Assembly: GCA_000004985.1 (NCBI GenBank)
Contig: GG738856.1
From: Naegleria gruberi
Lineage: Eukaryota
Reading direction: 5' to 3' (one strand)
Length of the DNA stretch: 64,000 nucleotides
The notes under the pieces were generated by a model, which was given only the letters and a program-made list of their open reading frames with translations, did no database searches and was not told the origin of the DNA. Position 1 is the first letter of the stretch, and every line of letters begins with the position of its first letter. The translations under genes and the position numbers were made by a program. Below, one piece after another: positions 23,780 through 61,269 of the stretch.

Positions 23780-26700
23780 ATGACAAGCAAGAAGAAGAAG
23801 GCTTCATCTTCGTCATCAACAACATCGTCATCACATGAAGAGGAATCATCAACAACAAAAAATAATATTATGGAGGATGATGCGGGTACTTCTAGTAATA
23901 ATAACAACAACAAGAAACACAAATCAAGTAAACGTAAAAAAAATTCTGATGAAAGTGTAGTGGATGAAGTAAAAAAGACACCTCTCAAAGTGAAAATTAA
24001 ACTGGGTGATACTGAAACAACAGTAGATCCTCTCGAACCTGAAAAGAGAAAGAAGAAGAGAGAATCTAAAAAATCCGATCAAAAATCACTTGTTTCAACA
24101 CTTATTACCCTTTTGGACAAACTTTTCAAGGCAGATAAGAAACAGAACTTCTGGTATGCTGTTCCCGAAAAAGAAAAACAGTACTATCAAGTCATTGATA
24201 ATCCTATGGATTTATCTTCAATTCAAGCAAAATTACTTCTTGGAAAGTACTCTTCAATTGGTAAATTTAGACAAGATCTAGACATTATTCACAACAATGC
24301 AGAAAAGTTTAATGGACAAGCTTCCCCAATTTTCAAGGCTGCAGAAAGGTTGAAATCAATTTATACAAAAGAACTTTCAGCTTACTCCGATTCGGATCCA
24401 ATAGTAACACCTCTCACAAATGACGATAGTACAGTAGAAGAATGTATGATACAGATTATAGATGCTCTTAAATATGAAGATTCTTATTCCATTTTCCATG
24501 AACCAGTCCCAAAGGAAGTTCCAAATTACTATGAGACTATCAAAAAACCAATGGATTTTGCCACTTTGAAGAAGAAGGTGACAGATCATAAGCTTTCCAT
24601 TTCTAAGTTTGAAAAGTACATGTTACGTATTTTTTCTAATGCAACAAAGTTCAACCTTCCAGATACTCTCTACTATGCAGAAGCTGTAAGAATTTCAAAA
24701 CTTTCTACTGAGCTGGTAGAGAAGCTTAAATCAAAATTCTCCTCTGAATCAAAACCAACTGTCACTATCACTGTAAAGGAGCCGCAACCAGAAGAGAAAA
24801 AAGAGAAAAAGTCAAAGAAAAAGAAAGAAGACAAAAAAGTCGAGAAGGAAGAAAAAGAAAAGAAATCAAAGAAAAAGAAAGAAAAAGAAGAAAAAAAGGA
24901 AGAAGTTAAAGTAGAACCTATTGTAGAAGAACCTTTTATTGATTTGAATGATACAGGATCTATGAGCGACGATGTTAAAACACCTAAGAAATCTTCCTCT
25001 GATAAAAAGAAAACTCCTAAGACAAAATCGACTACAAAATGGAAGGATCGTGTACGTATTACAGACTTAGATTTTCCAGATTTGGAGGACACACCTTTGT
25101 ATTCTCTTCTTGAATTAGTTTGGAAAAAACTAATGTCTATAGACGAATATTTAATATTTAAAGATCCTGTATCCAAAGATGTACCAAATTACCATAATAC
25201 AATTAAAACCCCAATGGATTTAACAACCATTAAGGGAAAAATAGATGATAAGAAATATACTAAGTGGCGAGAATTTGAAGATGATGTTGATCTTGTATAT
25301 GATAATTGCAAAACTTTTAACTCTCAAGATTCTATATATTCAAAAGAAGCTAACAGACAGCATAGATGGTTCAGAAAATGGAAGAAAGATATGGTGACTC
25401 ACTTTGGCAAGATTGAGGTTGCCGATCTTTCTGAAAAAGTTGTTTGTGACTATTTTAACGAGATATCTGTTGTTAAGACACACGCACCAAAGTATGATGT
25501 TACTCTTTTGAATACAATGGAAGAAGCAGAAGAGGAGACAACATTACCAAAAACTTCTCTTTGCTATCACCTTCTCAAAATTACAGAAGAGCTTAAAAAA
25601 CACGACAAGAACAAATACTTTTGGGAGAGTGTTGACGAAAGCGTTCATCCAAACTATAGTAACCAAATCAAACATTCTATTTGTTTATCAATGATAGCCA
25701 GTAATTGTAACAACAAACATTACAAGACTATTGATCAATTTATTAATGATATTGATCTCTTACATACTAATACTTCTACTTTCTTCTCTCCAAACTCTAA
25801 AGAAGCAAAAGAATCAAAAGCCTTATTGAATCTGGCTAAAGAAAAAGCACAACCTTTGAGAATTAAGACTTTCAAAGATGGTCCAACTTCTGCCAATAGT
25901 TCCAGTACAAACACTACAACACCAAAAACAAGGAGAGAAACTAGGGCATCAAGTTCACTTTTGGATGATATTGATAATTTTCTTGATATGGATGAAAAGG
26001 ATGATTTATTATCTAATGTGAAATCCGATAAAAAGAAGAAACCTTTAGCAAGTGCCTCTAAACCAAAAAGACGAAGACCAGTAAGCACTGCTGCAACAAA
26101 TCCATATAATAAGGATATTGAATTAGGATGGGTGCCACATATTCATAATTGTGCATACTGGCAATTCCCATCCTATTTGCCTGATCCTAATCCAGAAAAT
26201 AGACCTAAATCAATTGAATCCAATCATGATGCAACTCAATCATTCATTGATCCAGCATCCCTATCTAGCTCGTACAGTAGAGGTGATGATGAATCAAACT
26301 CATCTCAAGATGAAAGTGCTCCAAAACCAAAGAAAGAGAAAAAAGAAAAGGAAAAGACTCAAAAAATCACTTCCAATTCATCCGACATTGTTATTCCACA
26401 AAACATTTCAACATCAAAAACACCTAAGACCACCAAGAAGGAAAAGAATGTCACTATTCCACACACACCAACCTTAAATATCTCAGTTCCCCCATTCACC
26501 TCACCAAATTTATTCTCTCAATCAGCCACTGGTTCTAAATCAACTGCTCCACCTCAGGTTGTACATTTAACTACTGTTGAAAATAGACCACTTCCAAAGT
26601 ATTCCTATATCATCAAAAAGTATCGACAAAATTTATCTATTAACAAACCTAAAATTGATTTGAATCAACTCAAGACTATGAATCTTTCGGATTGTATGAA

Positions 26701-27256
26701 ACTCTTCTCAGATGATGAAAGATCAGTTTCTGAAATCGTTGAAGCAATGAAACAAAAACCAGATACCATACCAACAGATAATCTTTTATATGGACTTTCA
26801 GGCTTTAAGGACATTAGCCCAGAAGATGATGAACTCATTCAAAAGTTGGTCAAGATTGCTACCAAAGATGGAGGATTCAAGATGGATTCACACTTTGATA
26901 AGGCTTCACGTAATAATTCTTCACCAAAAGCTTCACTTTCATCAAAACATGTTGAAAAGGACATCATGGATGAAGATGATGACGACGATGAGGATGATGA
27001 GGAAGAAGAAAATGATTTGTCTGACATTGAAGATTTTGATGAGGAATTCGACCATAAGAAGGAAAAGTACACAGAAGAAGCTGATATGGATGATGACGAC
27101 GATGAATTTGTTGAGGGTGATGTTATGGAGAGAGTTTTGCAAGATTTTGAAACAGTTACCTTCCCAAGTACTAGAAGAAGTACTCCCGAAGAATTGTTCA
27201 AGAAGGTCAAACAAACACTCATGGATGAAGGTGTTAATATCTTTGAAGATGAATAA
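23780..27256 (+). CDS. poly-bromodomain protein (4 bromodomain-like units) with K/E-rich and acidic low-complexity regions
   Basis: Repeated F(H/K)(E/D)PV(P/S)K(E/D)VPNY(Y/H)(E/N)TIK(K/T)PMD(F/L) bromodomain signatures near aa 110, 230, 450 and 600. Single 1158-aa exon. Confidence 0.8.
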   Translation: MTSKKKKASSSSSTTSSSHEEESSTTKNNIMEDDAGTSSNNNNNKKHKSSKRKKNSDESVVDEVKKTPLKVKIKLGDTETTVDPLEPEKRKKKRESKKSDQKSLVSTLITLLDKLFKADKKQNFWYAVPEKEKQYYQVIDNPMDLSSIQAKLLLGKYSSIGKFRQDLDIIHNNAEKFNGQASPIFKAAERLKSIYTKELSAYSDSDPIVTPLTNDDSTVEECMIQIIDALKYEDSYSIFHEPVPKEVPNYYETIKKPMDFATLKKKVTDHKLSISKFEKYMLRIFSNATKFNLPDTLYYAEAVRISKLSTELVEKLKSKFSSESKPTVTITVKEPQPEEKKEKKSKKKKEDKKVEKEEKEKKSKKKKEKEEKKEEVKVEPIVEEPFIDLNDTGSMSDDVKTPKKSSSDKKKTPKTKSTTKWKDRVRITDLDFPDLEDTPLYSLLELVWKKLMSIDEYLIFKDPVSKDVPNYHNTIKTPMDLTTIKGKIDDKKYTKWREFEDDVDLVYDNCKTFNSQDSIYSKEANRQHRWFRKWKKDMVTHFGKIEVADLSEKVVCDYFNEISVVKTHAPKYDVTLLNTMEEAEEETTLPKTSLCYHLLKITEELKKHDKNKYFWESVDESVHPNYSNQIKHSICLSMIASNCNNKHYKTIDQFINDIDLLHTNTSTFFSPNSKEAKESKALLNLAKEKAQPLRIKTFKDGPTSANSSSTNTTTPKTRRETRASSSLLDDIDNFLDMDEKDDLLSNVKSDKKKKPLASASKPKRRRPVSTAATNPYNKDIELGWVPHIHNCAYWQFPSYLPDPNPENRPKSIESNHDATQSFIDPASLSSSYSRGDDESNSSQDESAPKPKKEKKEKEKTQKITSNSSDIVIPQNISTSKTPKTTKKEKNVTIPHTPTLNISVPPFTSPNLFSQSATGSKSTAPPQVVHLTTVENRPLPKYSYIIKKYRQNLSINKPKIDLNQLKTMNLSDCMKLFSDDERSVSEIVEAMKQKPDTIPTDNLLYGLSGFKDISPEDDELIQKLVKIATKDGGFKMDSHFDKASRNNSSPKASLSSKHVEKDIMDEDDDDDEDDEEEENDLSDIEDFDEEFDHKKEKYTEEADMDDDDDEFVEGDVMERVLQDFETVTFPSTRRSTPEELFKKVKQTLMDEGVNIFEDE

Positions 27257-27688: not shown

Positions 27689-28090
27689 ATGACCGCCGGA
27701 AAGACTTCTATCAAGGTTAGACAATTCTTCACTAACAGACTTTTGAACAGAAAGCAATTCGTTGTTGACATCCTCCACCCAGGTCAACCATCCCTTTCTT
27801 CTGCTCAATTGAAGGAAAAGTTGGCTGAACAATTCAAGGTTGCTAACCCACAAACTATCATGTTGACTGGTTTCAAGACTAAGTTCGGTGGTGGTAAGAG
27901 CTCTGGTTTTGCTAACATCTACGATTCCATCCAAGATATCAAGCTCGTTGAAGCCAAGCACAAGTTGGCTAGAAACAAGCTCATCACCCTCAAGAAGGAC
28001 GGTAGAAGATTGAAGAAGGAAAAGAAGAACAGAGCCGCTGCTGTTCGTGGTAAGGAAAAGACTAAGGTCAAGGGTGCCAACAAGAAGTAA
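27689..28090 (+). CDS. RPS24: 40S ribosomal protein eS24
   Basis: MTAGKTSIKVRQFFTNRLLNRKQFVVDILHPG...IMLTGFKTKFGGGKSSGFANIYDS. C/G-ending codon preference is typical of highly expressed genes. Confidence 0.9.
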   Translation: MTAGKTSIKVRQFFTNRLLNRKQFVVDILHPGQPSLSSAQLKEKLAEQFKVANPQTIMLTGFKTKFGGGKSSGFANIYDSIQDIKLVEAKHKLARNKLITLKKDGRRLKKEKKNRAAAVRGKEKTKVKGANKK

Positions 28091-28408: not shown

Positions 28409-29560
28409 ATGAAAACAATTCTTCTTGTTAACATTGCTCTCTTGTTCTGTTTGGGATTGGTTTTGGCAGATACCTATGCTCCTCAACCACCAAAAGAACA
28501 TTGCTATAATAAGTGTACTCATTACAAGACTGTTCAAGGTCAATGTGTTGATTTTGAATGGACTGGCACTAAGAAACAATGCTGTTTGTGGAAGACTGTT
28601 GGTATGTAATTTGTTTAATTGCATTTCTTTGTAATTTTCGATTGTGTTATTGGAAACATTTCAGGTCAAGGAAAATGTGCTGAATATAAGAAGATTTCCA
28701 AGTGTGACAAGTACAGTAAGGCAAGAACTCTCTGCTTGGGTCATGGTTATAAACAAGTTTGCAACAAGGTAACCAAACACAAGTTGTGTGCCAAATACGA
28801 ATGGAAAGAAGTGTGTAAACATAACGGAAAGAATCATGGTTGTGACAGTTATGGTTATCACTTTATCTGTACCAAGACTGACAAATCTCAAGGATGTTCA
28901 TTGTATACCTATGTTCCAAGAATCAAACATCATTACAAGAGAAGATGTTCCAAATATTCCATTCAACAATACTGTGCCAAGTATAAGAAGATTTACAAGA
29001 CTGTTAGAAGATGGGTTCCAGTCAGTAAGAAACATTACAAGGGTTGGATTGATCATTATTACAAGCAAGTTTTGGAAAAGAAGTTCCACACTATTTGTGT
29101 TGCCTATGCCAAGAAGAAGACTTGTACTGCTCACCAACGTGTCAAATTCTCAAAGAAGATTGGTTATGACAAGAAGTGTGTCAAATTCTTTGAAAAGAAG
29201 TATTGTATTGCCAAGAAGAGAGTTAAATTCTGTGAAAAGTGGTCTCCAAACAAATTCTGTGATTTGAAGGAAAGAGTTAGAGTTTGCATCAAGCACAGAG
29301 TTCAAAAATTCTGTTGTGATTATAAGGCTGTTCCATTCTGTACTCAATACAAGACATTGAAACCAAGATGTATCAAGAAATCTCACAAGAAGATTTGTGT
29401 CAAGAAGTCTAAAGGTTATAAGGTTTGTGCCAAGTATGAATTCGTTGGAGGAAAGAAGGTATGTAAGAAGTATGCTGAAAGAAGTGTCTGTGCTAAGAAA
29501 CAAAAGGTCTGTACCAAGATTGACACTTACAAGAAGGTTGATACCTATGCAAAGAAATAA
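28409..29560 (+). CDS. secreted Lys/Cys/Tyr-rich repetitive protein, 2 exons join(28409..28601,28665..29560)
   Basis: Signal peptide MKTILLVNIALLFCLGLVLA, GTATGT donor at 28602 and TTTCAG acceptor at 28664. Mature region is built of degenerate K-K-x-C-x-K-Y / C-x-K-x(3-6)-K-x-C repeats. More than 40 Cys, very basic. Confidence 0.55.
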
Positions 29561-29723: not shown

Positions 29724-31400
29724 TTAAACTTTGTTTTTTTTATTGTAGAGGAAAAGCTGGGAAGAGAAAAAGCCGCATCGTTGTAGAATGTCGTTAGGAG
29801 TTTCGCCATTGGTATTCTTTAGATTCATTTCAGTGTAATTAGAGTACATCAAAAAGGTCATGCATTCAATGGCACTTTCCTTTTCTGGAGTGATTTCGTT
29901 GTTTGTTTTAAATTCCATTAGAGATTCCATTCTGCGAGCTGCTTTATGGACTGGCGTTTCCTGCAGAGGAGTCGAATCTTTGGCATTGTAAATCTGCTTT
30001 AGTTGATCAGTGTTAGGATACATTTCTTGGAGTTGATTTGAAAGCAGTTCTAGAACTGGAAAATGACCTCCTTCGCAAGCAAAGTGGAGAATATTGTACT
30101 TTCTCTTATCTTTCTTCTCTATTAATTGATTGTAATAGTTTCTGTCCATCAGAAGAGAACAAACAGACAGCAATTCCTTGTTACCATTCAAAGCTGCTTG
30201 GTGGAAAATATTGATTCCTTCAGGGCATTCGGATTCGTTCTTGATCCATTTCTTAATGCTACCTCCACACATCAACTCTACCTCTTTCTGAATCAGAATA
30301 CAGTAGCACAAGCTTCTCTTCATTCTATTTGTTATTTCTGGTGGGAAGTCCATGTCCTCTGATGTTTTCTTACCAGAGGAGTTGTCGTCTGACTTTCTCT
30401 TCTTTGATTTTGTGCATGTTGCTTCTTCTTTAGAATCTGCACCATGTATTGATTGACCAATTTGAATTTGAGTGTTGGGTGAGTGTGGGGTAGGTAAGTT
30501 ATTGTGCCCATTGATTAATCCCTCTGAATTACAACTCTCTCTGTAATTATAGATGGAACTAATTAGTGGCCTTCTTCCATTCTCGTCTTTAGCCTGAATT
30601 TTGGCACCTCGTTTAATAAGCCAATTCAATCCTTTAGAATCTGACTTTTTAGCTGCAATGTGCATACAGGTTTCTGAACTTGTTTTCTTCGAATTAATAA
30701 CTTCGTTACCAAAAATTTCAATCAACTTGTCCATCACCTCAAATCTTCTTAATCTGTATGCTACGTGGAAGAATGTATTACCATAAACATCTTTGGCCTC
30801 TCTTTCAAGGCGTGAAAATACAAAATTGGTGTTTAAGAACAATAACATACAGTCCATCGAATTATTAGCGATGGCAACATGAAGTGGAGTTGCTCCACTC
30901 TTTTGTTCTCTAAGATTCACATCGAGTACTATGTCAGCACCAACACTGGAGAACGTTGTCAACAACGATAGCAGAATATTTACATGATTGCCTGCCATGC
31001 ACCAGTGAATTGCTGCTCTCTTGGTTGTTCTTTCAAGAGCATTGATATTATATGTTTTGATAAACTCTTCCTTCTTCATTTGAGCTCTAGCTTGAATCAT
31101 TTCTTCCAATAACTGATTGACTAAATATTCATCTCCAACTCTGCATGCCTCAACTATTTCCTGAATCCAATTAGAAGAGAAAGATGGACTCGAAGGTGAT
31201 GTTGGTGACGAAGGAGGATAGAATAATTGACTTTGACTTGTGCTAGCATAGTAAAAATCAATAGCTGCACCATCATCACTACTCACATCAGAAGAAGTGC
31301 TCAATTGGTCATTAAATTGATGTTGCTCGGAGGAACTATATCCAACATGAAGAAACTTTGGATTAATATCAATAGGACTACTTCTCAATATTTGTGGCAT
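29724..31400 (-). CDS. ankyrin-repeat protein (558 aa)
   Basis: Multiple ANK repeats (TPLHVAIANNSMDCMLLFL, TCMHIAAKKSDSKGLNWLIKRGAKI, YNILHFACEGGHFPVLELL). Confidence 0.7.
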   Translation of the reverse strand: MPQILRSSPIDINPKFLHVGYSSSEQHQFNDQLSTSSDVSSDDGAAIDFYYASTSQSQLFYPPSSPTSPSSPSFSSNWIQEIVEACRVGDEYLVNQLLEEMIQARAQMKKEEFIKTYNINALERTTKRAAIHWCMAGNHVNILLSLLTTFSSVGADIVLDVNLREQKSGATPLHVAIANNSMDCMLLFLNTNFVFSRLEREAKDVYGNTFFHVAYRLRRFEVMDKLIEIFGNEVINSKKTSSETCMHIAAKKSDSKGLNWLIKRGAKIQAKDENGRRPLISSIYNYRESCNSEGLINGHNNLPTPHSPNTQIQIGQSIHGADSKEEATCTKSKKRKSDDNSSGKKTSEDMDFPPEITNRMKRSLCYCILIQKEVELMCGGSIKKWIKNESECPEGINIFHQAALNGNKELLSVCSLLMDRNYYNQLIEKKDKRKYNILHFACEGGHFPVLELLSNQLQEMYPNTDQLKQIYNAKDSTPLQETPVHKAARRMESLMEFKTNNEITPEKESAIECMTFLMYSNYTEMNLKNTNGETPNDILQRCGFFSSQLFLYNKKNKV

Positions 31401-39736: not shown

Positions 39737-41086
39737 ATGAGCGCCAATAACACACTCACTATCAGCAATTTAATTTTTGTTGGTGATGAGGATGAATCTT
39801 TACAGGATAGATTTAACAAGATTGATCCGAGTATTCTGACTAAATATTCACGAGATTGTACCTTTAAAGAATATAGGCTTGTGGATTCGGATGATATTAC
39901 ATTGGATTCGGAGAAGGAAGATAAATTCTTCTCCACTCCTTTTGAACAATACAATTTACAGAAATTAATTAAAAAGACTAAAACATCGGCCAGTGATAAG
40001 GTTGTAATTTCGTTGGAAGATGTTGATTGTACAATTCCTTCTCATGATGACAAGTATTTTGAACCTGTTTCTTTTAAAACTAAAAGTGATAATTTAGTAT
40101 TGGAACGAGTGAATGAATGGATGCACTGTTTGAGATGTGATAATAATTTATTATTTTATGGATTAGGATCAAAGATTAATCCACTGAATCAATTAATGTA
40201 TTGCATGAAGGAAAGTGATGTGAATAGTTTCTTTGCAATTGTTTGTGGATATAATCCTGAAATTACAATCGGAATAATGTTGGATGACATTTTAAAGACA
40301 CATCTGAAAGAGAAGAATACTAAGAATTTATCATATGTGGAGAAAGTGGACACAATTATAAGAATAATGAATCAACGTAATGAATTGGCCAAACCTTTAC
40401 CTGATGATGAATTTGGTGATTTTGCAGAATTTATGAAAGATGAAGAGCCATCTACAAAACATGCCAAACAACATTTGTACATTTGCATTCATAATATTGA
40501 TGGACCAGGCCTTCGTTCTAAATCCACTCAACATTTACTCTCTGTTCTATCAAGTAATAGATATATTCACTTGATTTGTAGTGTAGATAATCAATTATCA
40601 AATTTATTATGGGAACCCTCAATTGAAGACAAGTTTGGCTTTATGAGATTCAATATTACCAACTTTTGTACATATTTTGCTGAATCTGAATATTACTCAT
40701 TACAAGATTTGTACAATGAATCATCTGATGGAAAGAAGAGTAGTGAAGAGAAATCACTTGGACCAGTTGAAATTGTTGCCAATATTTTAAAGTCAGCAAA
40801 CAAGAAACACAGACAAATTTACATGATTATTTGCAACAAATTTATTGAAAATGAAAAGTACAATGAATCGGAAGAAGGATCTAGCCAACCTAAACCTAGT
40901 GGCAGCACTCATCAAGAAATCAAATCTTCTATGGGTGTTTATTCAACAGATGATGCCTTGCTGAGAGATGGTTTGTCATATCTGGAAAATCAAATTAAGG
41001 TTATCAAGAAGAAGCAAAATACCTTTATTCCGACCTTGAAGCGAAATCAATGTGAAAAACTCTTGGTCATATTAAACAATTCATAA
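39737..41086 (+). CDS. ORC2: origin recognition complex subunit 2
   Basis: LLFYGLGSK...IHNIDGPGLRSKSTQHLLSVLSSNRYIHLICSVDNQLSNLLWE matches the ORC2 C-terminal domain (VHNIDGPMLR...IASIDH.NAPLLWD). Confidence 0.8.
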   Translation: MSANNTLTISNLIFVGDEDESLQDRFNKIDPSILTKYSRDCTFKEYRLVDSDDITLDSEKEDKFFSTPFEQYNLQKLIKKTKTSASDKVVISLEDVDCTIPSHDDKYFEPVSFKTKSDNLVLERVNEWMHCLRCDNNLLFYGLGSKINPLNQLMYCMKESDVNSFFAIVCGYNPEITIGIMLDDILKTHLKEKNTKNLSYVEKVDTIIRIMNQRNELAKPLPDDEFGDFAEFMKDEEPSTKHAKQHLYICIHNIDGPGLRSKSTQHLLSVLSSNRYIHLICSVDNQLSNLLWEPSIEDKFGFMRFNITNFCTYFAESEYYSLQDLYNESSDGKKSSEEKSLGPVEIVANILKSANKKHRQIYMIICNKFIENEKYNESEEGSSQPKPSGSTHQEIKSSMGVYSTDDALLRDGLSYLENQIKVIKKKQNTFIPTLKRNQCEKLLVILNNS

Positions 41087-47432: not shown

Positions 47433-49132
47433 ATGTCTTCCTTGTTAAAAGAGAGAGTCAAATGTGCTTCCTTGTTGAAGAAGGTAGTCACCCACCCAAG
47501 AGACTTGGTTTCATTGTTTAAACATGGTGATTATATTGGTATGAGTGGTTTTACTGGTATGTAATTTATTGTTGTAGGCTTGTATTCATGATTTATCTTC
47601 GGAATGATTATTTCATAAATACTACAATAATTAAAGGTGTTGGTTATCCAAAGGTTGTTCCACAAGTAAGTAAGACAATTTATCATCCATTATTCATCAA
47701 TTAATTCGGAAAGGCTTTGGCTGATCATGTCCAAGAAAACAAACTTGAAGGTAAAATGAAGTTTAATCTCTTTGTTGGTGCTTCATTAGGTGCTGAAGTT
47801 GAAGATAGATGGGCTAAATTAGATATGATTGATAGAAGATATCCTCACCAAGTCGGAAAGAACATTCAAAAGGGTATTAACGAAGGTAGAATTAGATTCT
47901 CTGACCAACACTTGTCTATGTTCTCTCAAAACTTGACTTATGGTTTTTATACTAAGGAATGTGCTAATCAAAAGAGCCCAATCAATTATGCTATTATTGA
48001 AGCTACTGAAATTAAGGAAGATGGAAGTATTATTTTGGCTGCTTCTGTTGGTGCTACACCAGAAATTCTTCACATGGCTGATAAGATTATTATTGAAGTC
48101 AATACTGCTTTGCCATCATTCGACGGTATTCATGATATTCATCTTCCTTTGGATCCTCCACACAGAAAGCCATTGATGATTGAAAATGTTCAAGATCGTA
48201 TTGGTACTACTGGATTGAAGATTGATTTGAGTAAGGTTGTTGCTATTGTTGAAAGTACTAAACCAGATAACACTGGTGGTAATGCTCCTGAAGATGAATC
48301 CAGTAAGCAAATTGCTAAGAATTTGACTGAATTCTTGATTTCCGAAGTTGACGCCAAGAGACTTCCAAAAGAATTGTTGCCACTCCAATCTGGTATTGGT
48401 AACATTGCCAATGCTGTTATTTCTGGATTGGTTGAATCTCCATTTGAAAATTTAACTGTATTTACTGAAGTTTTGCAAGATTGTTTCATTAACTTGTTCG
48501 AAGCTAACAAATTGAACTTTGCTTCTGCCACCTCTGTCAGATTGTCTGAGGAAGGTTTCAAGAAGTTCTATGCTGATTGGGATAACTATAAGAATAAGAT
48601 TGTTCTCAGACCACAAACTATTTCTAACGCTCCTGAATTGATCAGAAGACTTGGTGTCATTGCTATGAATACTCCAGTCGAATTCGATATTTATGGTCAC
48701 GTCAACTCTACCTGTGTTAATGGTTCTAGAATGATCAATGGTTTGGGTGGTTCTGGTGACTTTTTGAGAAATGGTAAGCTCTCAATTATGCACACTCCAG
48801 CTGCTAGACCATCTAAGAATGATCCAATTGGTATCACTTGTATTGTCCCAATGGTCAGTCACGTTGATCACACTGAACACGATTTGGATGTCTTTGTCAC
48901 TGAATTTGGTTATGCTGATGTTCGTGGTTTGTGTCCAAGAGACAGAGCTAAGCTTATTATTGAAAAGTGTGCTCATCCAGAATACAAACCAATTCTCCTC
49001 GACTACTTTGAAACTAACTTGAAGAAGTGTTTGAAGACTAGCTCTGCTCACCAGCCACACGACTTATCCACTGTTTTCAAGATGTACCAAAATCTCCAAG
49101 AAAAGGGTACAATGAGAATTGAACACTGGTAA
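47433..49132 (+). CDS. ACH1: acetyl-CoA hydrolase/transferase (ACH1 family), 3 exons join(47433..47556,47637..47665,47714..49132)
   Basis: MSSLLKERV...GMSGFTG | VGYPKVVPQ | [34 protein letters not shown]. Includes a 29-nt micro-exon. GTATGT and GTAAGT donors. Confidence 0.8.
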
Positions 49133-49311: not shown

Positions 49312-52300
49312 TTATTTATTTGCCTTCTTTTTCATTATCACTGATAATGGCATGTCATGTTTAAATAAGTGATTAATTAACATGGTAGAAATTTCTGCAA
49401 ATAAATCTTCGTTCATAGTAAAATCCAAAGTGTTCAATTTCATTAAATTTCCTTCCAATTTTGAAATGAATAAATCGTGATCTTGTTTGTGACCGGCTGC
49501 TCCTGGAATATTATTCTCTTGCATGTATTGTTCTTGTTTTGAGAAGAATTTTCTTGTCTTTTCCAAGAAATCACTCAATAAAATTTGTATCTGAATTGAA
49601 TGTTGATCAGCTACCCAAATATAGTATAATTTGTTAACTTGATAGAATAATTCTTTGTGATATTCATTCATTTCTGGGTCAAAATCCATCTTGGCATTCC
49701 ATTTAATGAATGGTTGATTCTTAATCATTTCATCAATCTCCTCCTGTGATGTTAATTTGTTCGTTGAGGATGAGCTTCTACTGTAACGTTTACCATCAGT
49801 TGTCTTTACAATGGATGCTCTTGTATTGGTTTGTTTGGAAGTTGAATAGGATGGGAATGCACTGGTGTGTCTTTTGGCTTTTTCTTCTAATGAAAGTTGA
49901 CTCGTGTCCTTCTTGAATTTAAATTTCATCTTTTGGAAAAATCCTAAACCTTGACTTTGAGATTTCAAACTCTTTAAGGTTTTATCTTCTTCCACTTTGA
50001 GAGAAATTCCTAGCTTCTTTGCTAATTGTTTGGCTGTTACTTTTTGATTATTTTTAATTCCAACACTACAATTGGCTGCTACTAGAATGGTAACAATTTC
50101 TTGATTTTGTTGATTGACTGCAATGTGAAGAGCAGTATCACCTGCATCATTTTGTGCATCAACATCAACTTCTCTTGCTCTTGCAAGTAGAAGAATTATA
50201 TCCTGATGTCCTTTCCTTGTTGCCAAATGAAGTGGACTATCACCATTCTTTTTATCCTTCTCATTTAAACATTCAACTATTGAATCTGTTCCTGACATGT
50301 AGTTAATTAACAATTTCAATGAATTAATATATCCAAAATTAGCACAATGATGAATAATGGTATTTCCTGCACCAGAGAGACGATTCACTATTTTAGAAAG
50401 TGTTGGCTTTCCAAATGCATCCTTAGGTGCTAAATTACCACTACCACTCAAACTTGATGATGATGAAGTTGCACTATCGAATTGATCAACAAATAACTTG
50501 TCATGCTTATTTTGCTCTTCAATTTCTAGGTATTTTGAATTTGTCAAGTGTTGTTGTTGAGTTTGATGATTTGGTGTTGAATTGGTTGGTGATGGACTCG
50601 AATTACTTGTTATATTAAATACAGATTCTTCTTCTATGGAAAGTAAATATCTACACAAATAATCAATTAAATGTGGATGTGGAGCAGCAGAATATAAACA
50701 ATGTTGATCTTCACGATTCATTCTCAAAATACTTGCACCCTTTTCCAATAGAAATTCAACCTTACTCAAATCACCCTCCTCACAACAAGTATGAAGACAT
50801 GTTTGACCTTTCTGTGTTTTAAAATTAACATCAGCACCAAACATGATTAAAGTTTTAGCAATATCTAAATATCCCTTTCTCAATGCCACACTCAGTGGTG
50901 TATTTTCAAAATTATCTTTCACATTCACTTTAGCACCACGCATCAATAAATAAACACAAGCACGAATACAATTATTGGCAACAGCATAAAAGAGTGGAGT
51001 TGAACCACCACCATCCTTCTTCTCTACCAAAGCTCTATATTCATCAATGAGAATACTAATAATTTTGAAACGATTCAAAGAGGCTGCCTTATGTAAAAGT
51101 GTCGTATTCGTTGCATCCTTATCAATATAATTTGAACTGATATTGAACACTTTGCCAGATTCTTCTCTTTCCTTCCTATCTTGTTCCAATCTATTTCTAA
51201 GTTCTTGTATGAAATTATGTTTAATATAATAATTCAATTCTTCTGTAATATCAATAAAATCAGTTCTAATTCCTTTTTGTCTTTCTAATTTAGTGGCTTC
51301 ATCCTCTTCCTCTTCTTCATTTTCTGATACTGTTACATTTGAATTTGAATTTGTTATTGTTGTTTTAGATAAAGTTGATGATTGAGAGTTGTTGGAATTA
51401 TCAACATCAATATTGGTGGATTTTTCAGAATGTTCAAATGTGGTTTCTGATAACCTGTTTGATCGTTTTTTATGGGAAATTATGAATTTGTTATCGGAAC
51501 ATTCTCTATAAATTGTTTTCTCTAAATTCATATAATCTTCTGTTGTTTTAAAATATTTCTTTCTCTTTCGTCTTTGTAAACCAGTGTTTGGATCAATACT
51601 TGGTGATTGTGGAGTTGAAGTAACTGAATCACTTATAGATAGTAATTGAATCATTATAGATGAAGGAACAGATGTTGTTCTATCCAAAGATGACAATTCA
51701 CTACCCACCACTTCATTAGAAATGTTATTCGAAATATTATTAGAAACACCTTGAGTTGTTGTAATAGATGGAATATCATCAAGTAAATCAAATAAACTAT
51801 TTTCTTGATTTTTAGATATTGTTGAAGATGAATGATTATTCAAATTAGTTGAATTATTCGAATTATTATTCGATGATGGTGATGAACGAATTAATTGTTG
51901 TTTAAAATTATTACTTGTTGATGATGGCCTCAGTGATGACATGTTAGAAAATGTTCTCATCAATGGACTTGTATCTTCTCCACCACCACCATTATTAGCA
52001 GCAACAGAAACAGCAGTAACAGTAGTACTACCATTACCTATAACCTCACCAGTTCTATCATCATCACCAGTATTAGTGATGGATGACGAAAAAGCCTTCA
52101 TTGACAAGCCTTTACAAGATGACAAAGATGATGCTAGCACCTCTTCTTCTTCTGAGGAGGATAATTGATTTAAATGATTGGAACAAGTTGTACTCGTTGA
52201 TGATGATAATAATTGTTTCTCATTCTTTGGAACAATAGAATCATGATTGATATTATTAGCAATAGCATCAGACTGTAGATGGCACTGCTGGCAAGTGTTA

Positions 52301-52356
52301 TGGTTGTTTGACATTTTTTTGGTTGAAGAATATAACGCAATTCTTGTCTGTGTCAT
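49312..52356 (-). CDS. large ankyrin-repeat protein (1014 aa) with N-terminal low-complexity region and C-terminal non-ANK domain
   Basis: At least 8 ANK repeats (TPLFYAVANNCIRACVYLLMRGAKVN, TPLSVALRKGYLDIAKTLIMFGADVN, SPLHLATRKGHQDIILLL). Confidence 0.7.
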   Translation of the reverse strand: MTQTRIALYSSTKKMSNNHNTCQQCHLQSDAIANNINHDSIVPKNEKQLLSSSTSTTCSNHLNQLSSSEEEEVLASSLSSCKGLSMKAFSSSITNTGDDDRTGEVIGNGSTTVTAVSVAANNGGGGEDTSPLMRTFSNMSSLRPSSTSNNFKQQLIRSSPSSNNNSNNSTNLNNHSSSTISKNQENSLFDLLDDIPSITTTQGVSNNISNNISNEVVGSELSSLDRTTSVPSSIMIQLLSISDSVTSTPQSPSIDPNTGLQRRKRKKYFKTTEDYMNLEKTIYRECSDNKFIISHKKRSNRLSETTFEHSEKSTNIDVDNSNNSQSSTLSKTTITNSNSNVTVSENEEEEEDEATKLERQKGIRTDFIDITEELNYYIKHNFIQELRNRLEQDRKEREESGKVFNISSNYIDKDATNTTLLHKAASLNRFKIISILIDEYRALVEKKDGGGSTPLFYAVANNCIRACVYLLMRGAKVNVKDNFENTPLSVALRKGYLDIAKTLIMFGADVNFKTQKGQTCLHTCCEEGDLSKVEFLLEKGASILRMNREDQHCLYSAAPHPHLIDYLCRYLLSIEEESVFNITSNSSPSPTNSTPNHQTQQQHLTNSKYLEIEEQNKHDKLFVDQFDSATSSSSSLSGSGNLAPKDAFGKPTLSKIVNRLSGAGNTIIHHCANFGYINSLKLLINYMSGTDSIVECLNEKDKKNGDSPLHLATRKGHQDIILLLARAREVDVDAQNDAGDTALHIAVNQQNQEIVTILVAANCSVGIKNNQKVTAKQLAKKLGISLKVEEDKTLKSLKSQSQGLGFFQKMKFKFKKDTSQLSLEEKAKRHTSAFPSYSTSKQTNTRASIVKTTDGKRYSRSSSSTNKLTSQEEIDEMIKNQPFIKWNAKMDFDPEMNEYHKELFYQVNKLYYIWVADQHSIQIQILLSDFLEKTRKFFSKQEQYMQENNIPGAAGHKQDHDLFISKLEGNLMKLNTLDFTMNEDLFAEISTMLINHLFKHDMPLSVIMKKKANK

Positions 52357-53951: not shown

Positions 53952-54010
53952 GATTTTTGTACAACAGAATAGGCAAACAGACTATCAGTCAATTGGAATA
54001 ATACCACCTG

Positions 54011-55516
54011 TTGGTAGTCCTAAAACTTGAAATTAACAAGTCAATCAAGAAATTAAACATATTTCAATCGGATTTGAAGATACTAAAAATTCTAAGTGAA
54101 ATGACAAGATTTAATTCCTCACTTGAACGTTTAATAAACATTATCAAGCCTAATTATTATTTGTTTACAAAAAAAATGATCAATAAGAAATCTCATCATA
54201 AAAAGCCTTTTGATCATCGTAATCATGATCATGATAATACAATAGATCATGTTCCGATGATGGTAGGTGAAAAATCACTACTTGAAATAGGTTCCGATTG
54301 TATTTTGGAAATATTTAAATATCATGTTGAAACATCTGATGATATTTTAGTATTATCACATACATGTTCAGATTTTAAACAATTAATTAATACAAATACG
54401 GAAATTTGGACTTGTAAAATTAAATCAATATTTAAAAGAAAGGCTTTACAATTTCAAAATTTCAAAGTTAATAGAGTTGATTTGTTAAATCAATTTTTAT
54501 TAAATAATTTAACAGATAATTATTATTTACTTCCAGAAAAGGAAGTTTATCAATTTTCTAAAAAAAATGGTGGAGAATTTATTAATATGATTACAAATAC
54601 AAATGATTTAATCAAGTATTTTAAATATGAAAAACAAGTTGAATCTGATTTTAATAATAGAAATTTCATTTATTCCAAATTAGGAAATCTATTTGAATGG
54701 ATTCAAAGAATTTTTATAATCTTATTTTGTATTTATATTTCATTCCAAGAATATTATGTGGTCATGAAAACAGCATTAGATTTAAATATATATAGTTGGG
54801 TTAAATATTCTGATTTAATTATTTATACTTCTCTAATTTTGGAATCTTTAATTATTTTTATAGATGTTTTTATTTTGTGCTATTTTAGTGAATTTATTTT
54901 AAATATTAAAAAATCCATTAAAAGAGCCTATTCAAAAATTACATACACGCGCAGATATAAAATTATAGTACTCATTCTAATTCTATCAATTGCATCATTA
55001 TTTATTAGAATTATGTTTTATTTTAATAATGATAGTGATGGTTCTCTTTTACAAGAACGTAGAAAATATTATAATGAATTGGATTTGGAAAATGCAAATA
55101 TTTTACAAAGATTTCAATTAGGTGTATTTAATGGTGAAGAAATATTTAGATCTTTAATTAACAATTTTAATTTATTACTTTCAATTCCATTGGCTTTTGG
55201 ATATTATGAAGCTTCTAAATTTTTAACGGAATTTAATACTTTATTTGTTTTTGGAGTGGGAATTTATTTACAATTATTTACTTTGATATTTTTTACTAAT
55301 ATTTTAACTCCTATTTTAGCATTTGTTATTGCTATATTAGGAGGATATTATTATAAGTATGATATTTCTAATTGGAAAAAAATATTATCAATTGCAACAT
55401 CACATTTATTTGCTTATTTGGGATTTTCATCATTTTATATATTTTTACCACATGTAATTTATTTTACTATTTGTGAGAATACTGGTCATGGAAGTTCAGA
55501 GGATATAAATTTTTAA
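54011..55516 (+). CDS. F-box-like domain fused to multi-pass transmembrane region
   Basis: LLEIGSDCILEIFKYHVETSDDILVLSHTCSDFKQLINTNTEIWTCKI, then at least 6 hydrophobic helices in the C-terminal 280 aa. Confidence 0.45.
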   Translation: MVVLKLEINKSIKKLNIFQSDLKILKILSEMTRFNSSLERLINIIKPNYYLFTKKMINKKSHHKKPFDHRNHDHDNTIDHVPMMVGEKSLLEIGSDCILEIFKYHVETSDDILVLSHTCSDFKQLINTNTEIWTCKIKSIFKRKALQFQNFKVNRVDLLNQFLLNNLTDNYYLLPEKEVYQFSKKNGGEFINMITNTNDLIKYFKYEKQVESDFNNRNFIYSKLGNLFEWIQRIFIILFCIYISFQEYYVVMKTALDLNIYSWVKYSDLIIYTSLILESLIIFIDVFILCYFSEFILNIKKSIKRAYSKITYTRRYKIIVLILILSIASLFIRIMFYFNNDSDGSLLQERRKYYNELDLENANILQRFQLGVFNGEEIFRSLINNFNLLLSIPLAFGYYEASKFLTEFNTLFVFGVGIYLQLFTLIFFTNILTPILAFVIAILGGYYYKYDISNWKKILSIATSHLFAYLGFSSFYIFLPHVIYFTICENTGHGSSEDINF

Positions 55517-56354
55517 TTTTATCGTTTCTGGATAGAAGAACTTTGATTGTGGTTGTAATAAGGCAAGTAGTCGTTTGGTAGAACTATTCGAATAAATTGA
55601 ATGGTTGATGAGTGAGGACTGTTACAAAACATGTTACTATCACAAGGATCCTTGACAGTATGTAATATTTCTCACTAACACATCTGATGCTTCAATAATT
55701 GTGAGCCACTTTTCATCCCAAATATTCTATTAAATTCATTATCATCCCAACAATTTGTTTCAAAAAAACTGTAGATCAAATGAGTAAAACCCATTTCATT
55801 GTATTTTGATATGGAGACTTTACAATGAAATCTATTCAAGAGACTCTTTTATTTCAGATATGATACTACTTACAAGTTGGAGATACGCTCAACTTGTATT
55901 GAAATAATTAGATTTATTAGCAATAATACCTTCAATTATTAGAAAGATTGACTTTTTCCTTTTTAGTATTGACACAATTCCGCTTGTCATTTTACAATGT
56001 GCACCAATCAGAGTGTTACATTTTTCAGTACAAAATATATTTAATATTATTATACAATCAGATACTTCACTCTGCTGAACCTAACTTTCGTTTCCTTTCA
56101 CACTGAATCGAACTAATGTTTAAATTCTAACATAAAAATCACCAATGTCACTACTATTTCAGCTTCAGTGGAAGATTCTACTTCAGTTGAAAATTGACGT
56201 CTTTATCGGCAATGGTTTTTTGAAAAGGGAAACTTTTTTCAAAGCCTAAAAAAAATCGCTTGACATTAGACTGAAACAATTTCAGTGATTTACAAGCAAT
56301 CTACCTCAACACCACTCTAATAACAGTGAACCAAACTAATTACTTTGAGAGTAA

Positions 56355-58449: not shown

Positions 58450-58611
58450 ATTGTACATATTTTGTAAACTTACTATTATTATTGAAATAATAATAATAAT
58501 GGATCTCATACAACAACAACAACAACAACATTATCAAATAATTTATCATCATCAACATCATCAACATCAACAACAATAACATTACAAAGTGCTCAACAAT
58601 TTTTCAAAAAT

Positions 58612-60390: not shown

Positions 60391-60634
60391 TATTGTCATC
60401 TTTCATTAATATTTGTTGAGATAATATTAGTGATATATTAGTGAATGATATATTGAATGATATTATTTTTAAAACTAAATTAACGTAATATTTTAACTGA
60501 AATCAAATGAAATAATACAAATAATAATACTATTTGTAATGGTATTATTAAAAAATTCAATAATTTGATTAATGATGTAAAAAAAGAAATGATATATTAT
60601 TAATAATAACCATTATAATTGTACAAATAAAATT

Positions 60635-61129: not shown

Positions 61130-61269
61130 TTTTTTAAATGTTATTTATTTATAAAAAAGCAATCAATTTCTATTGAATAGAAAACAAAGCCTTTTTTTTC
61201 ATCGTCTGTCTGTTACTATTGGATGATCATTATTTTGAGGAGCAGTAGTAGAAGATAATAATAATAACA

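What the first reader, a model, noticed from the sequence alone, without database searches (positions are those of the whole stretch)
28409..29560. Secreted, extremely basic Lys/Cys/Tyr-rich protein built from degenerate C-x-K-Y/K-K-x-C repeats
After a clean signal peptide the 313-aa exon is an almost periodic array of CAKY, CKKY, CxKxxxK and KKxC units. It has more than 40 Cys, abundant Tyr and Lys, and essentially no acidic residues. The composition resembles adhesive or structural wall and cyst proteins, or cationic antimicrobial proteins. I could not assign it to a known family. Its 3' end is convergent with the ankyrin gene at 29724.
Basis: partly seen in the sequence, partly recalled or inferred. 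Interest (0 to 1): 0.6.

Follow-up and report, generated by a model that had tools for sequence, protein, structure and literature searches.

The report
Secreted basic protein: giant disulfide-laddered hairpin
This is a real, conserved gene of a Naegleria-type amoeba for a secreted, very lysine-rich protein whose two halves appear to pair antiparallel and be stapled by about 15 disulfide rungs into one long rod, a build with no solved or named counterpart and an untested function.

Summary
The gene is real. It has two exons (28409..28601 and 28665..29560) and a 63-nt GT..AG intron, and encodes 362 aa with a signal peptide. The mature protein is 23% Lys with pI 9.8.

The true repeat is a nonamer, C-x-K-[YFW]-x-K-x-K-[VFYI]. 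Cys spacing is exactly 9 in 16 of 31 gaps (0 of 10,000 shuffles reach this).

Relatives occur only in Naegleria and Willaertia, with several paralogues per genome, all annotated as hypothetical. There is no Pfam, PDB-sequence or fold match. dN/dS is 0.17.

New finding: the Cys pattern is a mirror image about residue ~189. There are 16 Cys in each half, and 14-15 pairs obey i+j≈378. Across paralogues, insertions and deletions occur at mirrored segments of both halves (0 of 20,000 permutations). Cys residues are also gained or lost together at mirrored sites (153/227, 175/205, 177-179/201). AlphaFold (13 sequences, pLDDT 75) independently gives two ~100-residue strands around a turn at 185-195. 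I read this as one giant cystine-laddered β-hairpin, about 50 nm long if extended.

Function is inferred only. Most likely it is an extracellular structural or cross-linking polycation, possibly in the cyst wall. A cationic antimicrobial role is the main rival.

The parts
28409..28601 (+). Exon 1 (codons 1-64 plus the first base of codon 65)
   Evidence: ATG at 28409. The ORF runs into GTATGT at 28602. The spliced product aligns without a gap to intronless homologues.
28409..28468 (+). Signal peptide, residues 1-20 (MKTILLVNIALLFCLGLVLA)
   Evidence: Read from the sequence. An equivalent hydrophobic N-terminus is present in all full-length relatives.
28469..28501 (+). Mature N-terminal overhang, residues 21-31 (DTYAPQPPKEH), carrying the D-[ST]-Y-x-P motif
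   Evidence: The motif recurs at the mature N-terminus of the orthologues (VDTYG, VDSYG, ADTYKPP).
28602..28664 (+). Intron, 63 nt, GT..AG, phase 1
   Evidence: It is absent from homologues L002 and L004-L006.
28502..28975 (+). N arm of the ladder, residues 32-168 (16 Cys; interrupted by the intron)
   Evidence: Cys at 32, 36, 46, 58, 59, 69, 78, 88, 97, 106, 115, 124, 133, 142, 159, 168. All are invariant in the main subfamily. AF2 predicts strands 31-184.
28976..29095 (+). Tip of the hairpin, residues 169-208 (AKYKKIYKTVRRWVPVSKKHYKGWIDHYYKQVLEKKFHTI); Cys-free here and rich in aromatic residues
   Evidence: The mirror centre is at about residue 189. The AF2 break and low pLDDT fall at 185-195. 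W181, V184, H188, Y189, G191, W192, D194, Y196 and Y197 are invariant in A1.
29096..29512 (+). C arm of the ladder, residues 209-347 (16 Cys)
   Evidence: Cys at 209, 218, 236, 245, 254, 263, 272, 281, 282, 290, 300, 309, 319, 331, 340, 347. They mirror the N arm with i+j = 376-379. AF2 predicts strands 196-348.
29513..29560 (+). C-terminal tail, residues 348-362 (TKIDTYKKVDTYAKK), plus the TAA stop. It holds two degenerate copies of the (V/I)D(T/S)Y-K-P-P-K unit
   Evidence: The unit is present in 4 tandem copies in P0002 (KVDTYKPPK) and in P0004 (IDSYKP). Copy number varies between orthologues.

Best explanation
The locus is an expressed-type, spliced gene of a Naegleria-clade amoeba (Heterolobosea). 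It encodes a secreted polycationic protein of about 342 aa, from an orphan family found only in Naegleria and Willaertia.

Shown or strongly supported. The mature chain is built of nonamers, C-x-K-[YFW]-x-K-x-K-[VFYI]. Its N-terminal half (residues 32-168) and C-terminal half (209-347) run antiparallel and in register. The 16 + 16 Cys face each other as about 15 rungs: 32-347, 36-340, 46-331, 58-319, 69-309, 78-300, 88-290, 97-281, 106-272, 115-263, 124-254, 133-245, 142-236, 159-218 and 168-209. An aromatic, Cys-free tip lies at 169-208. The two termini carry D-T-Y motifs and lie together at the open end.

Inferred. The rungs are disulfides, because the protein takes the secretory route. The arms are β-strands, giving a two-stranded ribbon about 50 nm long if extended (about 155 residues at 3.3 Å each).

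Inferred with less support. The molecule acts outside the cell as a stiff polycationic rod (net charge about +70). It binds polyanionic or carbohydrate matrix material. It is then locked in place through its exposed Tyr/Lys/Pro end motifs and its two unpaired Cys (C59, C282). On this reading it is a structural or cross-linking component of the cyst wall or surface coat.
For: Gene and selection:
- Splice model and composition.
- 7 synonymous to 1 non-synonymous difference against a near-identical metagenomic copy.
- dN/dS = 0.17 against a 70%-identical homologue.
- All 32 mature Cys are invariant across five orthologues that share only 55-71% identity.
- Codon usage is shifted towards that of the neighbouring RPS24 gene: AAG 71% and TTC 75%, against 40% and 34% in the window background, with GAA and CAA at 100%. 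This suggests substantial expression at some stage.

Periodicity:
- Spacing of 9 in 16 of 31 gaps, reached by 0 of 10,000 shuffles.
- Nonamer consensus from 201 units in 13 proteins.

Antiparallel pairing, four independent lines:
(a) 14 of 16 possible Cys pairs satisfy i+j = 377±1. Gap-order shuffles give a mean of 9.5 and a maximum of 13, with 0 of 300 reaching 14. A tandem-offset model fits worse, at 12. The irregular gaps are mirrored: 17 against 18, 10-9-10 against 10-9-10, and 12 against 12.
(b) Indels in paralogues fall in mirrored segments of both arms: P0012 +6/+12; P0018 +2/+2, +2/+4 and +3/+3; P0016 +3/+3; P0026 -3/-3, -2/-1 and -8/-3. That is 9 same-sign mirrored cells against a null mean of 2.2 and a maximum of 8, with 0 of 20,000. 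After dropping related sequences it is 7 against a maximum of 6.
(c) Cys are gained or lost together at mirrored positions: 153 with 227, 175 with 205, and 177/179 with 201.
(d) AlphaFold2 on the 13-sequence alignment gives pLDDT 75.4, an all-β model, uninterrupted strands at 85-184 and 196-296, a low-confidence turn at 185-195, and strand breaks that are themselves mirrored: 53-54/326-327, 65-68/313-315 and 82-84/297-299.

No known fold or family.

Structural-role hints:
- The copy number of the terminal (V/I)D(T/S)YKPPK unit varies between orthologues.
- The same D-x-Y-x-P motif occupies the mirrored inserted bulges of subfamily 2.
- There are at least 4 paralogues in N. gruberi.
- It was not listed in a 2-DE survey of proteins preferentially secreted by N. 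fowleri trophozoites.
Against: - There is no expression, localisation or biochemical datum for any family member. The function is inference from composition and shape.
- I could not inspect the AF2 coordinates, so S-S distances and strand register are unverified. pTM is 0.23. The first AF2 run, with 5 sequences, failed (pLDDT 34).
- A 9-residue (odd) spacing places successive rungs alternately at hydrogen-bonded and non-hydrogen-bonded positions of an ideal antiparallel ribbon. The former are unfavourable for disulfides (established knowledge). The real structure must therefore be twisted or bulged, or must differ in detail.
- Non-Cys mirrored columns show no covariation with 13 sequences; this test was uninformative.
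- Sequence cannot distinguish an intramolecular hairpin from an antiparallel domain-swapped dimer or polymer.
- Some small indels are unmatched: P0010 -4, and +1 in P0018 and P0016.
- The gap-shuffle null is high because of the periodicity (14 observed against a maximum of 13).
Confidence: 0.45

Rival explanations
1. The protein is a giant cationic antimicrobial or bacteria-binding protein. The amoeba secretes it, or delivers it to phagosomes, and the polycationic cystine-laddered hairpin binds and disrupts anionic bacterial envelopes. It would work like tachyplesin- or protegrin-type β-hairpin peptides, but at about 15 times their length.
For: It has a net charge of about +70, abundant aromatic residues, and an inferred cross-strand disulfide ladder on one hairpin. 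These are the hallmarks listed for β-hairpin antimicrobial peptides (PMC13001179). Naegleria feeds on bacteria (established knowledge).
Against: Known β-hairpin antimicrobial peptides are 11-25 aa and are enriched in Arg over Lys. This protein is 342 aa with K 78 against R 13. It is under strong purifying selection, and its Cys and many other residues are invariant over deep divergence, unlike typical fast-evolving effectors. The terminal Tyr-Lys-Pro tandem units of variable copy number are more typical of structural or adhesive proteins. It was not among the proteins listed in a trophozoite secretome survey, though this is weak evidence.
Confidence: 0.2
2. The antiparallel register is the same but intermolecular. 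The N arm of one chain pairs with the C arm of another in a domain-swapped arrangement, giving disulfide-linked dimers or open-ended polymers (fibrils) rather than a monomeric hairpin.
For: The mirror rule i+j = constant, the mirrored indels and the paired Cys gains are satisfied equally by an antiparallel homodimer. Two Cys (C59, C282) have no mirror partner and lie 38 residues out of register, which suggests some intermolecular bonding. N. gruberi-clade proteins have an odd number of Cys, 35.
Against: AF2 models a monomeric hairpin with a defined turn at 185-195. The tip is conserved. In some lineages it acquires extra mirrored Cys close to the centre (175/205, 177/201), which fits a tight intramolecular turn.
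Confidence: 0.15
3. The protein is a beads-on-a-string chain with local disulfides. Consecutive Cys pair up (C-x8-C loops), or small local modules form, as in CREMP, DPY, Chironomus Sp185 or EGF-repeat fibres. On this reading the mirror symmetry is incidental.
For: Every characterised disulfide-rich tandem-repeat structural protein that I could cite uses local C1-C3/C2-C4 modules (PMC12723725). Periodicity alone raises the mirror-score null to 9.5-13 out of 16.
Against: There is one Cys per nonamer, not four per module. There are no EGF or DPY Pfam hits. Mirrored indels are significant at 0 of 20,000. Single Cys are gained together at 153 and 227, which are 74 residues apart; under consecutive pairing this would shift every bond in between. 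The AF2 model also argues against it.
Confidence: 0.1
4. The protein is a polyprotein precursor. It is cleaved at its many dibasic sites into small C-x8-C peptides, such as signalling or toxin peptides.
For: KK, KR and RR dipeptides occur throughout the sequence.
Against: The units are not near-identical copies, and the DNA repeats are degenerate. Irregular segments and the tip are strictly conserved. The mirrored covariation implies that the whole chain folds as one unit. The dibasic sites follow simply from a 22% Lys content.
Confidence: 0.04

Closest known systems
Uncharacterised Naegleria/Willaertia proteins: N. gruberi NAEGRDRAFT_64508 and _48501, N. fowleri FDP41_004030 and FDP41_003065, N. 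lovaniensis C9374_000273. More distant paralogues: NAEGRDRAFT_66117, _67458, C9374_009239 and W. magna ABK040_005866.
   Same: These are true homologues, at 55-71% identity in the main subfamily and 30-40% in the others. They share the signal peptide, all 32 Cys, the nonamer, the tip and the terminal DTY motifs.
   Different: None is characterised; all are annotated 'hypothetical' or 'predicted protein'. No paper in the searched library cites their identifiers. The window copy has an intron that the sampled homologues lack, and only two degenerate C-terminal repeat units.
Cystine-ladder β-hairpin antimicrobial peptides (tachyplesin, protegrin, gomesin, arenicin, θ-defensin)
   Same: They are cationic and aromatic-rich, and form a single antiparallel hairpin stapled by cross-strand disulfides (class features as reviewed in PMC13001179).
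   Different: They are 11-25 aa with 2-3 rungs and are enriched in Arg over Lys. This protein is 342 aa with about 15 rungs spaced 9 residues apart, is Lys-rich (78 K, 13 R), shows no sequence relationship and is under purifying selection.
Disulfide-rich tandem-repeat extracellular structural proteins (avian CREMP, Drosophila DUMPY DPY modules, Chironomus Sp185 silk, octopus octovafibrin EGF arrays)
   Same: They are secreted, contain about 10% or more Cys, are built from many short repeats and have an elongated shape. They form insoluble extracellular fibres or membranes (PMC12723725).
   Different: Those proteins use autonomous 2-3-disulfide modules with local C1-C3/C2-C4 bonds joined by linkers. 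This protein has one Cys per 9-residue unit and long-range mirrored partners across the whole chain. There are no Pfam EGF or DPY hits.
Tyr/Lys/Pro-repeat wall and adhesive proteins (mussel foot protein-1 AKPSYPPTYK, plant PRP PPVYK repeats; mfp-6 for overall Cys/Tyr/Lys-rich basic composition). This comparison is from memory and was not tested.
   Same: The terminal unit K-V-D-T-Y-K-P-P-K is present in variable copy number. The overall composition is basic and rich in Tyr, Lys and Cys.
   Different: In this protein the repeats are confined to the ends and the inserted bulges. DOPA, hydroxyproline or dityrosine chemistry is unknown in Naegleria. No homology was detected.
Protist cyst or oocyst wall proteins (Giardia CWP1-3, Entamoeba Jacob/Jessie, Acanthamoeba Luke/Leo/Jonah, apicomplexan COWP). 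This comparison is from memory.
   Same: They are secreted, Cys-rich and lineage-restricted wall-building proteins, and some carry basic tails.
   Different: There is no sequence or Pfam relationship. Those proteins contain LRR, chitin-binding, CBM or 6-Cys modules. A wall localisation for the Naegleria family is untested.

Membership tests
Naegleria/Willaertia orphan 'nonamer Cys-ladder' family (NAEGRDRAFT_64508-like) | Significant full-length sequence homology | tested here: met
   E = 1e-117 to 1e-159 against Naegleria proteins over 94-99% of the query. The profile search finds the same set.
Naegleria/Willaertia orphan 'nonamer Cys-ladder' family (NAEGRDRAFT_64508-like) | N-terminal signal peptide and 32 conserved Cys at fixed spacing | tested here: met
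   All 32 mature Cys are invariant in A1. A hydrophobic N-terminus is present in all full-length members.
Naegleria/Willaertia orphan 'nonamer Cys-ladder' family (NAEGRDRAFT_64508-like) | Mirror-symmetric Cys spacing about a central Cys-poor tip | tested here: met
   14 mirror pairs in the window protein and in P0002, P0003, P0004 and P0008; 15 in P0005. Mirrored indels and paired Cys gains in the other subfamilies.
β-hairpin (cystine-ladder) antimicrobial peptides | Length of 11-25 residues | tested here: not met
   The mature protein is 342 aa. The class definition is from PMC13001179.
β-hairpin (cystine-ladder) antimicrobial peptides | Cationic, with at least 2 Cys pairs across one hairpin | tested here: inconclusive
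   The protein is cationic (pI 9.8). Cross-hairpin pairing is inferred from mirror statistics and AF2, not demonstrated chemically.
β-hairpin (cystine-ladder) antimicrobial peptides | Arg enriched relative to Lys | tested here: not met
   K 78 against R 13 in the mature protein.
β-hairpin (cystine-ladder) antimicrobial peptides | Antimicrobial activity | not testable with these tools
   This requires an assay on purified protein.
Modular disulfide-rich tandem-repeat structural proteins (EGF, DPY, CREMP, Sp185 type) | Repeats are autonomous modules with 4-6 Cys and local C1-C3/C2-C4 bonds | tested here: not met
   There is one Cys per nonamer. Partners are inferred to be long-range. There are no EGF or DPY Pfam hits. 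Module definitions are from PMC12723725.
Modular disulfide-rich tandem-repeat structural proteins (EGF, DPY, CREMP, Sp185 type) | Secreted and incorporated into an insoluble extracellular structure | not testable with these tools
   A signal peptide is present. Incorporation into a wall or fibre is unknown.
Tyr-Lys-Pro repeat adhesive or wall proteins (mfp-1, plant PRP/extensin type) | The bulk of the protein is tandem Pro/Tyr/Lys oligopeptide repeats | tested here: not met
   Only the 15-residue tail (KIDTYKKVDTYAKK) and the N-terminal DTYAPQPP resemble such units. Orthologues have up to 4 copies.
Tyr-Lys-Pro repeat adhesive or wall proteins (mfp-1, plant PRP/extensin type) | Post-translational DOPA, hydroxyproline or (iso)dityrosine cross-links | not testable with these tools
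   This needs amino-acid analysis or MS of the native protein.
Known protist cyst-wall protein families (Giardia CWP, Entamoeba Jacob/Jessie, Acanthamoeba Luke/Leo/Jonah, COWP) | Presence of their signature domains (LRR, chitin-binding, CBM, OWP repeats) | tested here: not met
   No Pfam family matches at E ≤ 0.01 for the protein or for any of 13 relatives.
Known protist cyst-wall protein families (Giardia CWP, Entamoeba Jacob/Jessie, Acanthamoeba Luke/Leo/Jonah, COWP) | Encystment-specific expression and wall localisation | not testable with these tools
   No Naegleria encystment transcriptome or wall proteome was found in the library.

The most novel reading that the evidence does not exclude
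The family represents a previously undescribed protein architecture. The entire chain of about 340 residues is a single two-stranded antiparallel β-ribbon, zipped by about 15 evenly spaced (every 9 residues) cross-strand disulfides into a polycationic rod about 50 nm long. It has sticky Tyr/Lys/Pro ends and one or two spare thiols for end-to-end or lateral polymerisation. This would be a new way for a eukaryote to build an extracellular fibre or wall element, found only in Naegleria and Willaertia.
Probability: 0.4. Interest if true: 0.8.

Novelty: new variant of a known kind. Interest (0 to 1): 0.62.

Why it matters

Biology. The molecular make-up of the Naegleria cyst wall and surface is essentially uncharted. 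Cysts are the environmentally resistant stage of the pathogen N. fowleri. A conserved, genus-restricted, abundant-looking secreted protein family with orthologues in N. fowleri (FDP41_004030, FDP41_003065) is therefore a concrete candidate for a wall component, a diagnostic antigen or a marker of encystment.

If the protein turns out to be antimicrobial, it would extend the β-hairpin antimicrobial principle by an order of magnitude in size.

Tried and rejected
- Pfam on the protein, on 13 relatives, and on fused or extended relatives gave nothing relevant. The only hits were Rhv at E = 0.043 and SVM_signal, both below cut-off.
- PDB sequence searches with the single protein and with a profile gave 0 hits at E ≤ 10.
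- The first AlphaFold run, on 5 orthologues, was unusable (pLDDT 33.8).
- Mutual information between non-Cys mirrored columns showed no peak at the expected register. With 13 related sequences this test is uninformative.
- Literature searches on gene identifiers returned no paper. Searches on the Naegleria cyst wall, encystment and transcriptomes found nothing specific to Naegleria wall proteins.
- The supplements of a Naegleria copper-proteomics paper contain none of the six N. gruberi identifiers searched. An N. fowleri trophozoite secretome table does not list the orthologues.
- A tandem-duplication origin of the two halves was rejected. A direct-offset model fits 12 Cys against 14 for the mirror, and the irregular gaps run in opposite order. 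DNA repeats are short and degenerate.
- There is no paralogue elsewhere in the window (tblastn).
- The N-terminal 359-aa Cys-rich extension of the distant relative P0016 had no PDB or protein-database homologue, so the fusion gives no functional hint.
- The fused gene models P0023 (SAM + PB1) and P0021 (RCC1) look like annotation chimeras, and I did not use them as functional evidence.
- The alignment-based metagenome scan failed with A2. With A1 it gave only three more N. gruberi-clade orthologues.
Full report
1. What is in the sequence

The region 28409..29560 on the + strand carries a two-exon gene.
- Exon 1 runs from the ATG at 28409 to 28601.
- A 63-nt intron (GTATGT...TTTCAG, phase 1) occupies 28602..28664.
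- Exon 2 runs from 28665 to the TAA at 29558..29560.

The splice is supported by homologues that lack the intron and read ...CC-WKTVGKGKC... without interruption.

The product is 362 aa. Residues 1-20 (MKTILLVNIALLFCLGLVLA) form a classical signal peptide; this is read from the sequence, as no predictor was available.

The composition is K 79 (21.8%), C 33 (32 mature), Y 29, R 13, H 15 and D+E 22. The mature pI is 9.8 and the mass about 40.7 kDa. There is no N-x-S/T sequon.

The gene lies 318 bp downstream of a ribosomal protein S24e gene (27689..28090). It is convergent with an ankyrin-repeat gene (29724..31400, - strand), 163 bp away.

2. The repeat

Cutting the chain at each Cys gives units of 9 residues in 16 of 31 cases. 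Shuffling the mature sequence gives a mean of 1.4 and a maximum of 7 in 10,000 trials. Autocorrelation peaks at 9, 18, 27 and 36.

Over 201 nonamers from 13 family members the consensus is C-[VA..]-K-[YFW]-x-K-x-K-[VFYI]. At the DNA level there are only short, degenerate matches and no recent tandem array. The periodicity is therefore old and is maintained at the protein level.

3. Relatives

A word-indexed search of 5.8 billion proteins found seven relatives. An exhaustive profile search of 1.84 billion cluster representatives found 20 hits, two of which are low-complexity noise.

Every named hit is from Naegleria (N. gruberi, N. fowleri, N. lovaniensis) or Willaertia magna, and is annotated 'hypothetical' or 'predicted protein'. 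The rest are metagenomic contigs. One of these, L001, is 98% identical in DNA to the window over 3.8 kb and has the same ankyrin neighbour. A metagenome scan added three N. gruberi-clade orthologues.

The identity matrix shows four subfamilies:
- The main one contains the window, P0002 at 70%, and N. fowleri, N. lovaniensis and N. gruberi at 55-60%.
- The second contains P0012 and P0031, at about 40%.
- The third contains P0026 and P0019, at about 30%.
- The fourth contains P0018, P0016 and P0032, at about 30%. P0016 and P0032 also carry an unrelated N-terminal Cys-rich extension with no homologues.

N. gruberi alone has at least four loci.

There is no Pfam family, no PDB sequence match even with a profile, and no paper citing the identifiers. 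The window organism is therefore a Naegleria-clade heterolobosean that is not among the annotated genomes.

4. Selection and expression hints

Against L001 the coding region differs at 8 sites, 7 of them synonymous. Against the 70%-identical P0002 gene, dN/dS is 0.17, with dS about 1.1. All 32 mature Cys and about 90 other positions are invariant across five orthologues.

Codon usage is shifted towards that of the adjacent RPS24 gene. AAG is 71% and TTC 75%, and GAA and CAA are 100%. The 22 long ORFs of the window give AAG 40% and TTC 34%. This is indirect evidence for substantial expression at some stage.

5. The key structural finding: a mirror-symmetric Cys ladder

The second AlphaFold run, on the 13-sequence alignment A2, gave a mean pLDDT of 75.4, with 284 residues at 70-90, and an all-β model. 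It has two uninterrupted strands at 85-184 and 196-296, separated by a low-confidence segment at 185-195. The outer strand breaks pair up as mirror images: 53-54 with 326-327, 65-68 with 313-315, and 82-84 with 297-299. The model is therefore one giant hairpin.

I could not inspect the coordinates, so I tested the topology on sequence alone, in three ways.

(a) Mirror spacing. There are exactly 16 Cys before residue 169 and 16 after residue 208. With i+j = 377±1, 14 of the 16 possible pairs match. Shuffling the order of the gaps gives a mean of 9.5 and a maximum of 13, with 0 of 300 reaching 14. A tandem-offset model matches only 12. The irregular gaps sit at mirrored places: 17 against 18, 10-9-10 against 10-9-10, and 12 against 12.

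(b) Mirrored indels. I mapped each paralogue's Cys onto the window's rungs and compared segment lengths. Length changes occur in the same inter-rung segment on both arms:
- P0012: segment 12, +6 and +12.
- P0018: segment 10, +2 and +2; segment 13, +2 and +4; segment 14, +3 and +3.
- P0016: segment 14, +3 and +3.
- P0026: segment 3, -3 and -3; segment 4, -2 and -1; segment 13, -8 and -3.
- P0019: segment 13, -8 and -3.

That gives nine same-sign mirrored cells against a permutation mean of 2.2 and a maximum of 8, with 0 of 20,000. After removing the two related sequences it is seven against a maximum of 6. Four small changes are unmatched.

(c) Paired Cys gains and losses.
- A Cys at window-equivalent position 153 and one at 227 (sum 380) are both present in P0012, P0031, P0018 and P0032, and both absent in all eight main-subfamily proteins.
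- Cys at 175 with 205, and at 177 or 179 with 201, appear together in the N. gruberi clade and in subfamily 2.

A protein cannot inherit a reversed spacing from a DNA inverted repeat. The symmetry must therefore reflect a structural constraint, namely that the two halves lie antiparallel and in register.

The inferred rungs are 32-347, 36-340, 46-331, 58-319, 69-309, 78-300, 88-290, 97-281, 106-272, 115-263, 124-254, 133-245, 142-236, 159-218 and 168-209.

C59 and C282 are left over. They are 38 residues out of register with each other, and they are present only in the main subfamily (C282 only in part of it).

Non-Cys covariation gave no signal with 13 sequences.

6. What is shown and what is inferred

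Shown:
- The gene model, composition and nonamer periodicity.
- The lineage restriction and the purifying selection.
- The mirror symmetry, with correlated indels and Cys gains.

Strongly inferred: antiparallel pairing of the two halves, with Cys facing Cys.

Inferred:
- The rungs are disulfides, because the protein takes the secretory route.
- The arms are β-strands. This rests on AF2 only.
- Pairing is intramolecular. An antiparallel domain-swapped dimer or polymer satisfies the same rules.
- The length is about 50 nm if extended (about 155 residues at 3.3 Å each).

One caveat comes from established β-sheet geometry. An odd spacing of 9 puts alternate rungs at hydrogen-bonded positions, which are poor sites for disulfides. 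The real ribbon must therefore be twisted or bulged.

7. Function

No datum bears directly on function. Four features favour an extracellular structural or cross-linking role:
- The molecule is rod-shaped and carries about +70 net charge, which suits binding to polyanionic or carbohydrate matrix.
- Both chain ends lie together at the open end of the hairpin and carry the motif (V/I)D(T/S)Y-x-P(P)K. This motif is tandemly amplified to four copies in some orthologues. It also fills the mirrored inserted bulges and the tip insertions of subfamily 2. It resembles Tyr-Lys-Pro cross-linking repeats of mussel and plant wall proteins; that comparison is from memory and untested.
- There are spare Cys.
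- There are several paralogues per genome.

The cyst wall is the obvious extracellular structure in Naegleria and Willaertia, but the link is a hypothesis.

The main rival is a giant cationic antibacterial protein. Known β-hairpin antimicrobial peptides share the cationic cystine-ladder hairpin, but they are 11-25 aa and Arg-rich (PMC13001179).

Known disulfide-rich repeat fibres (CREMP, DPY, Sp185, octovafibrin) use local two- or three-disulfide modules (PMC12723725), so this protein is built differently.

8. Verdict

The 'unassignable, wall-like or antimicrobial-like' interpretation is reasonable but incomplete.

The protein belongs to an uncharacterised family restricted to Naegleria and Willaertia. 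Its predicted architecture is a single cystine-laddered hairpin spanning the whole chain. That architecture has no solved counterpart and rests on three independent sequence tests plus AF2.

I rate it a new variant of known kinds (cystine-ladder hairpins; disulfide-rich extracellular repeat proteins), with a substantial chance of being a new architecture. Interest is 0.62.

Noticed in passing
window 28602..28664, compared with L002, L004, L005 and L006: The window gene has a 63-nt phase-1 intron after codon 64. The sampled homologues (P0002 on L002 and the three N. gruberi-clade loci) have none there. This is intron presence/absence variation within the family.
   Followed up: partly
window 27689..28090 (+): This is a ribosomal protein S24e gene (Pfam E = 4e-32) with extreme codon bias: AAG 25/25, ATC 7/7 and AAC 7/7. 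I used it as the reference for highly expressed codon usage.
   Followed up: partly
window 23780..27256 (+): An 1158-aa protein with four bromodomains (Pfam E = 1e-73) and long poly-Lys/Glu/Ser low-complexity linkers.
   Followed up: no
window 29724..31400 (-), 49312..52356 (-), 56355..57743 (+), 58612..60390 (+): Four separate ankyrin-repeat protein genes lie in one 64-kb window. This may be a dispersed ankyrin gene family.
   Followed up: no
window 54001..64000: G+C drops from about 33% to 17-27% over the last 10 kb. ORFs there use AAG and TTC far less (AAG 8-25%) than ORFs in the rest of the window. The cause is not examined; it could be a compositional domain or a subtelomeric or repeat-rich region.
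   Followed up: no
window 47717..49132 (+): An acetyl-CoA hydrolase/transferase (ASCT-like) gene with strong codon bias (AAG 84%, GGT 86%). It is probably highly expressed.
   Followed up: no
window 39737..41086 (+): A homologue of ORC2 (origin recognition complex subunit 2; Pfam E = 5e-39).
   Followed up: no
P0023 (N. gruberi NAEGRDRAFT_76199) and P0021 (W. magna ABK040_005866): These public gene models fuse a C-terminal piece of the Cys-ladder family to unrelated cytosolic domains: SAM + PB1 in P0023 and RCC1 repeats in P0021. They are probably annotation chimeras of neighbouring genes.
   Followed up: partly
L003 3836..5977 (P0016) and P0032: A distant family member from metagenomes carries an extra N-terminal domain of about 350 aa. 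The domain is Cys-rich and contains recurring 'ECP...CPAGKK' units. It has no Pfam, PDB or database homologue.
   Followed up: partly
window protein residues 59 and 282 (nt 28583..28585 and 29315..29317): The two CC doublets each contribute one Cys with no mirror partner. C282 occurs only in lineages that also have C59. N. gruberi-clade proteins keep C59 alone and so have an odd number of Cys. These may be free thiols or sites of intermolecular bonding.
   Followed up: partly
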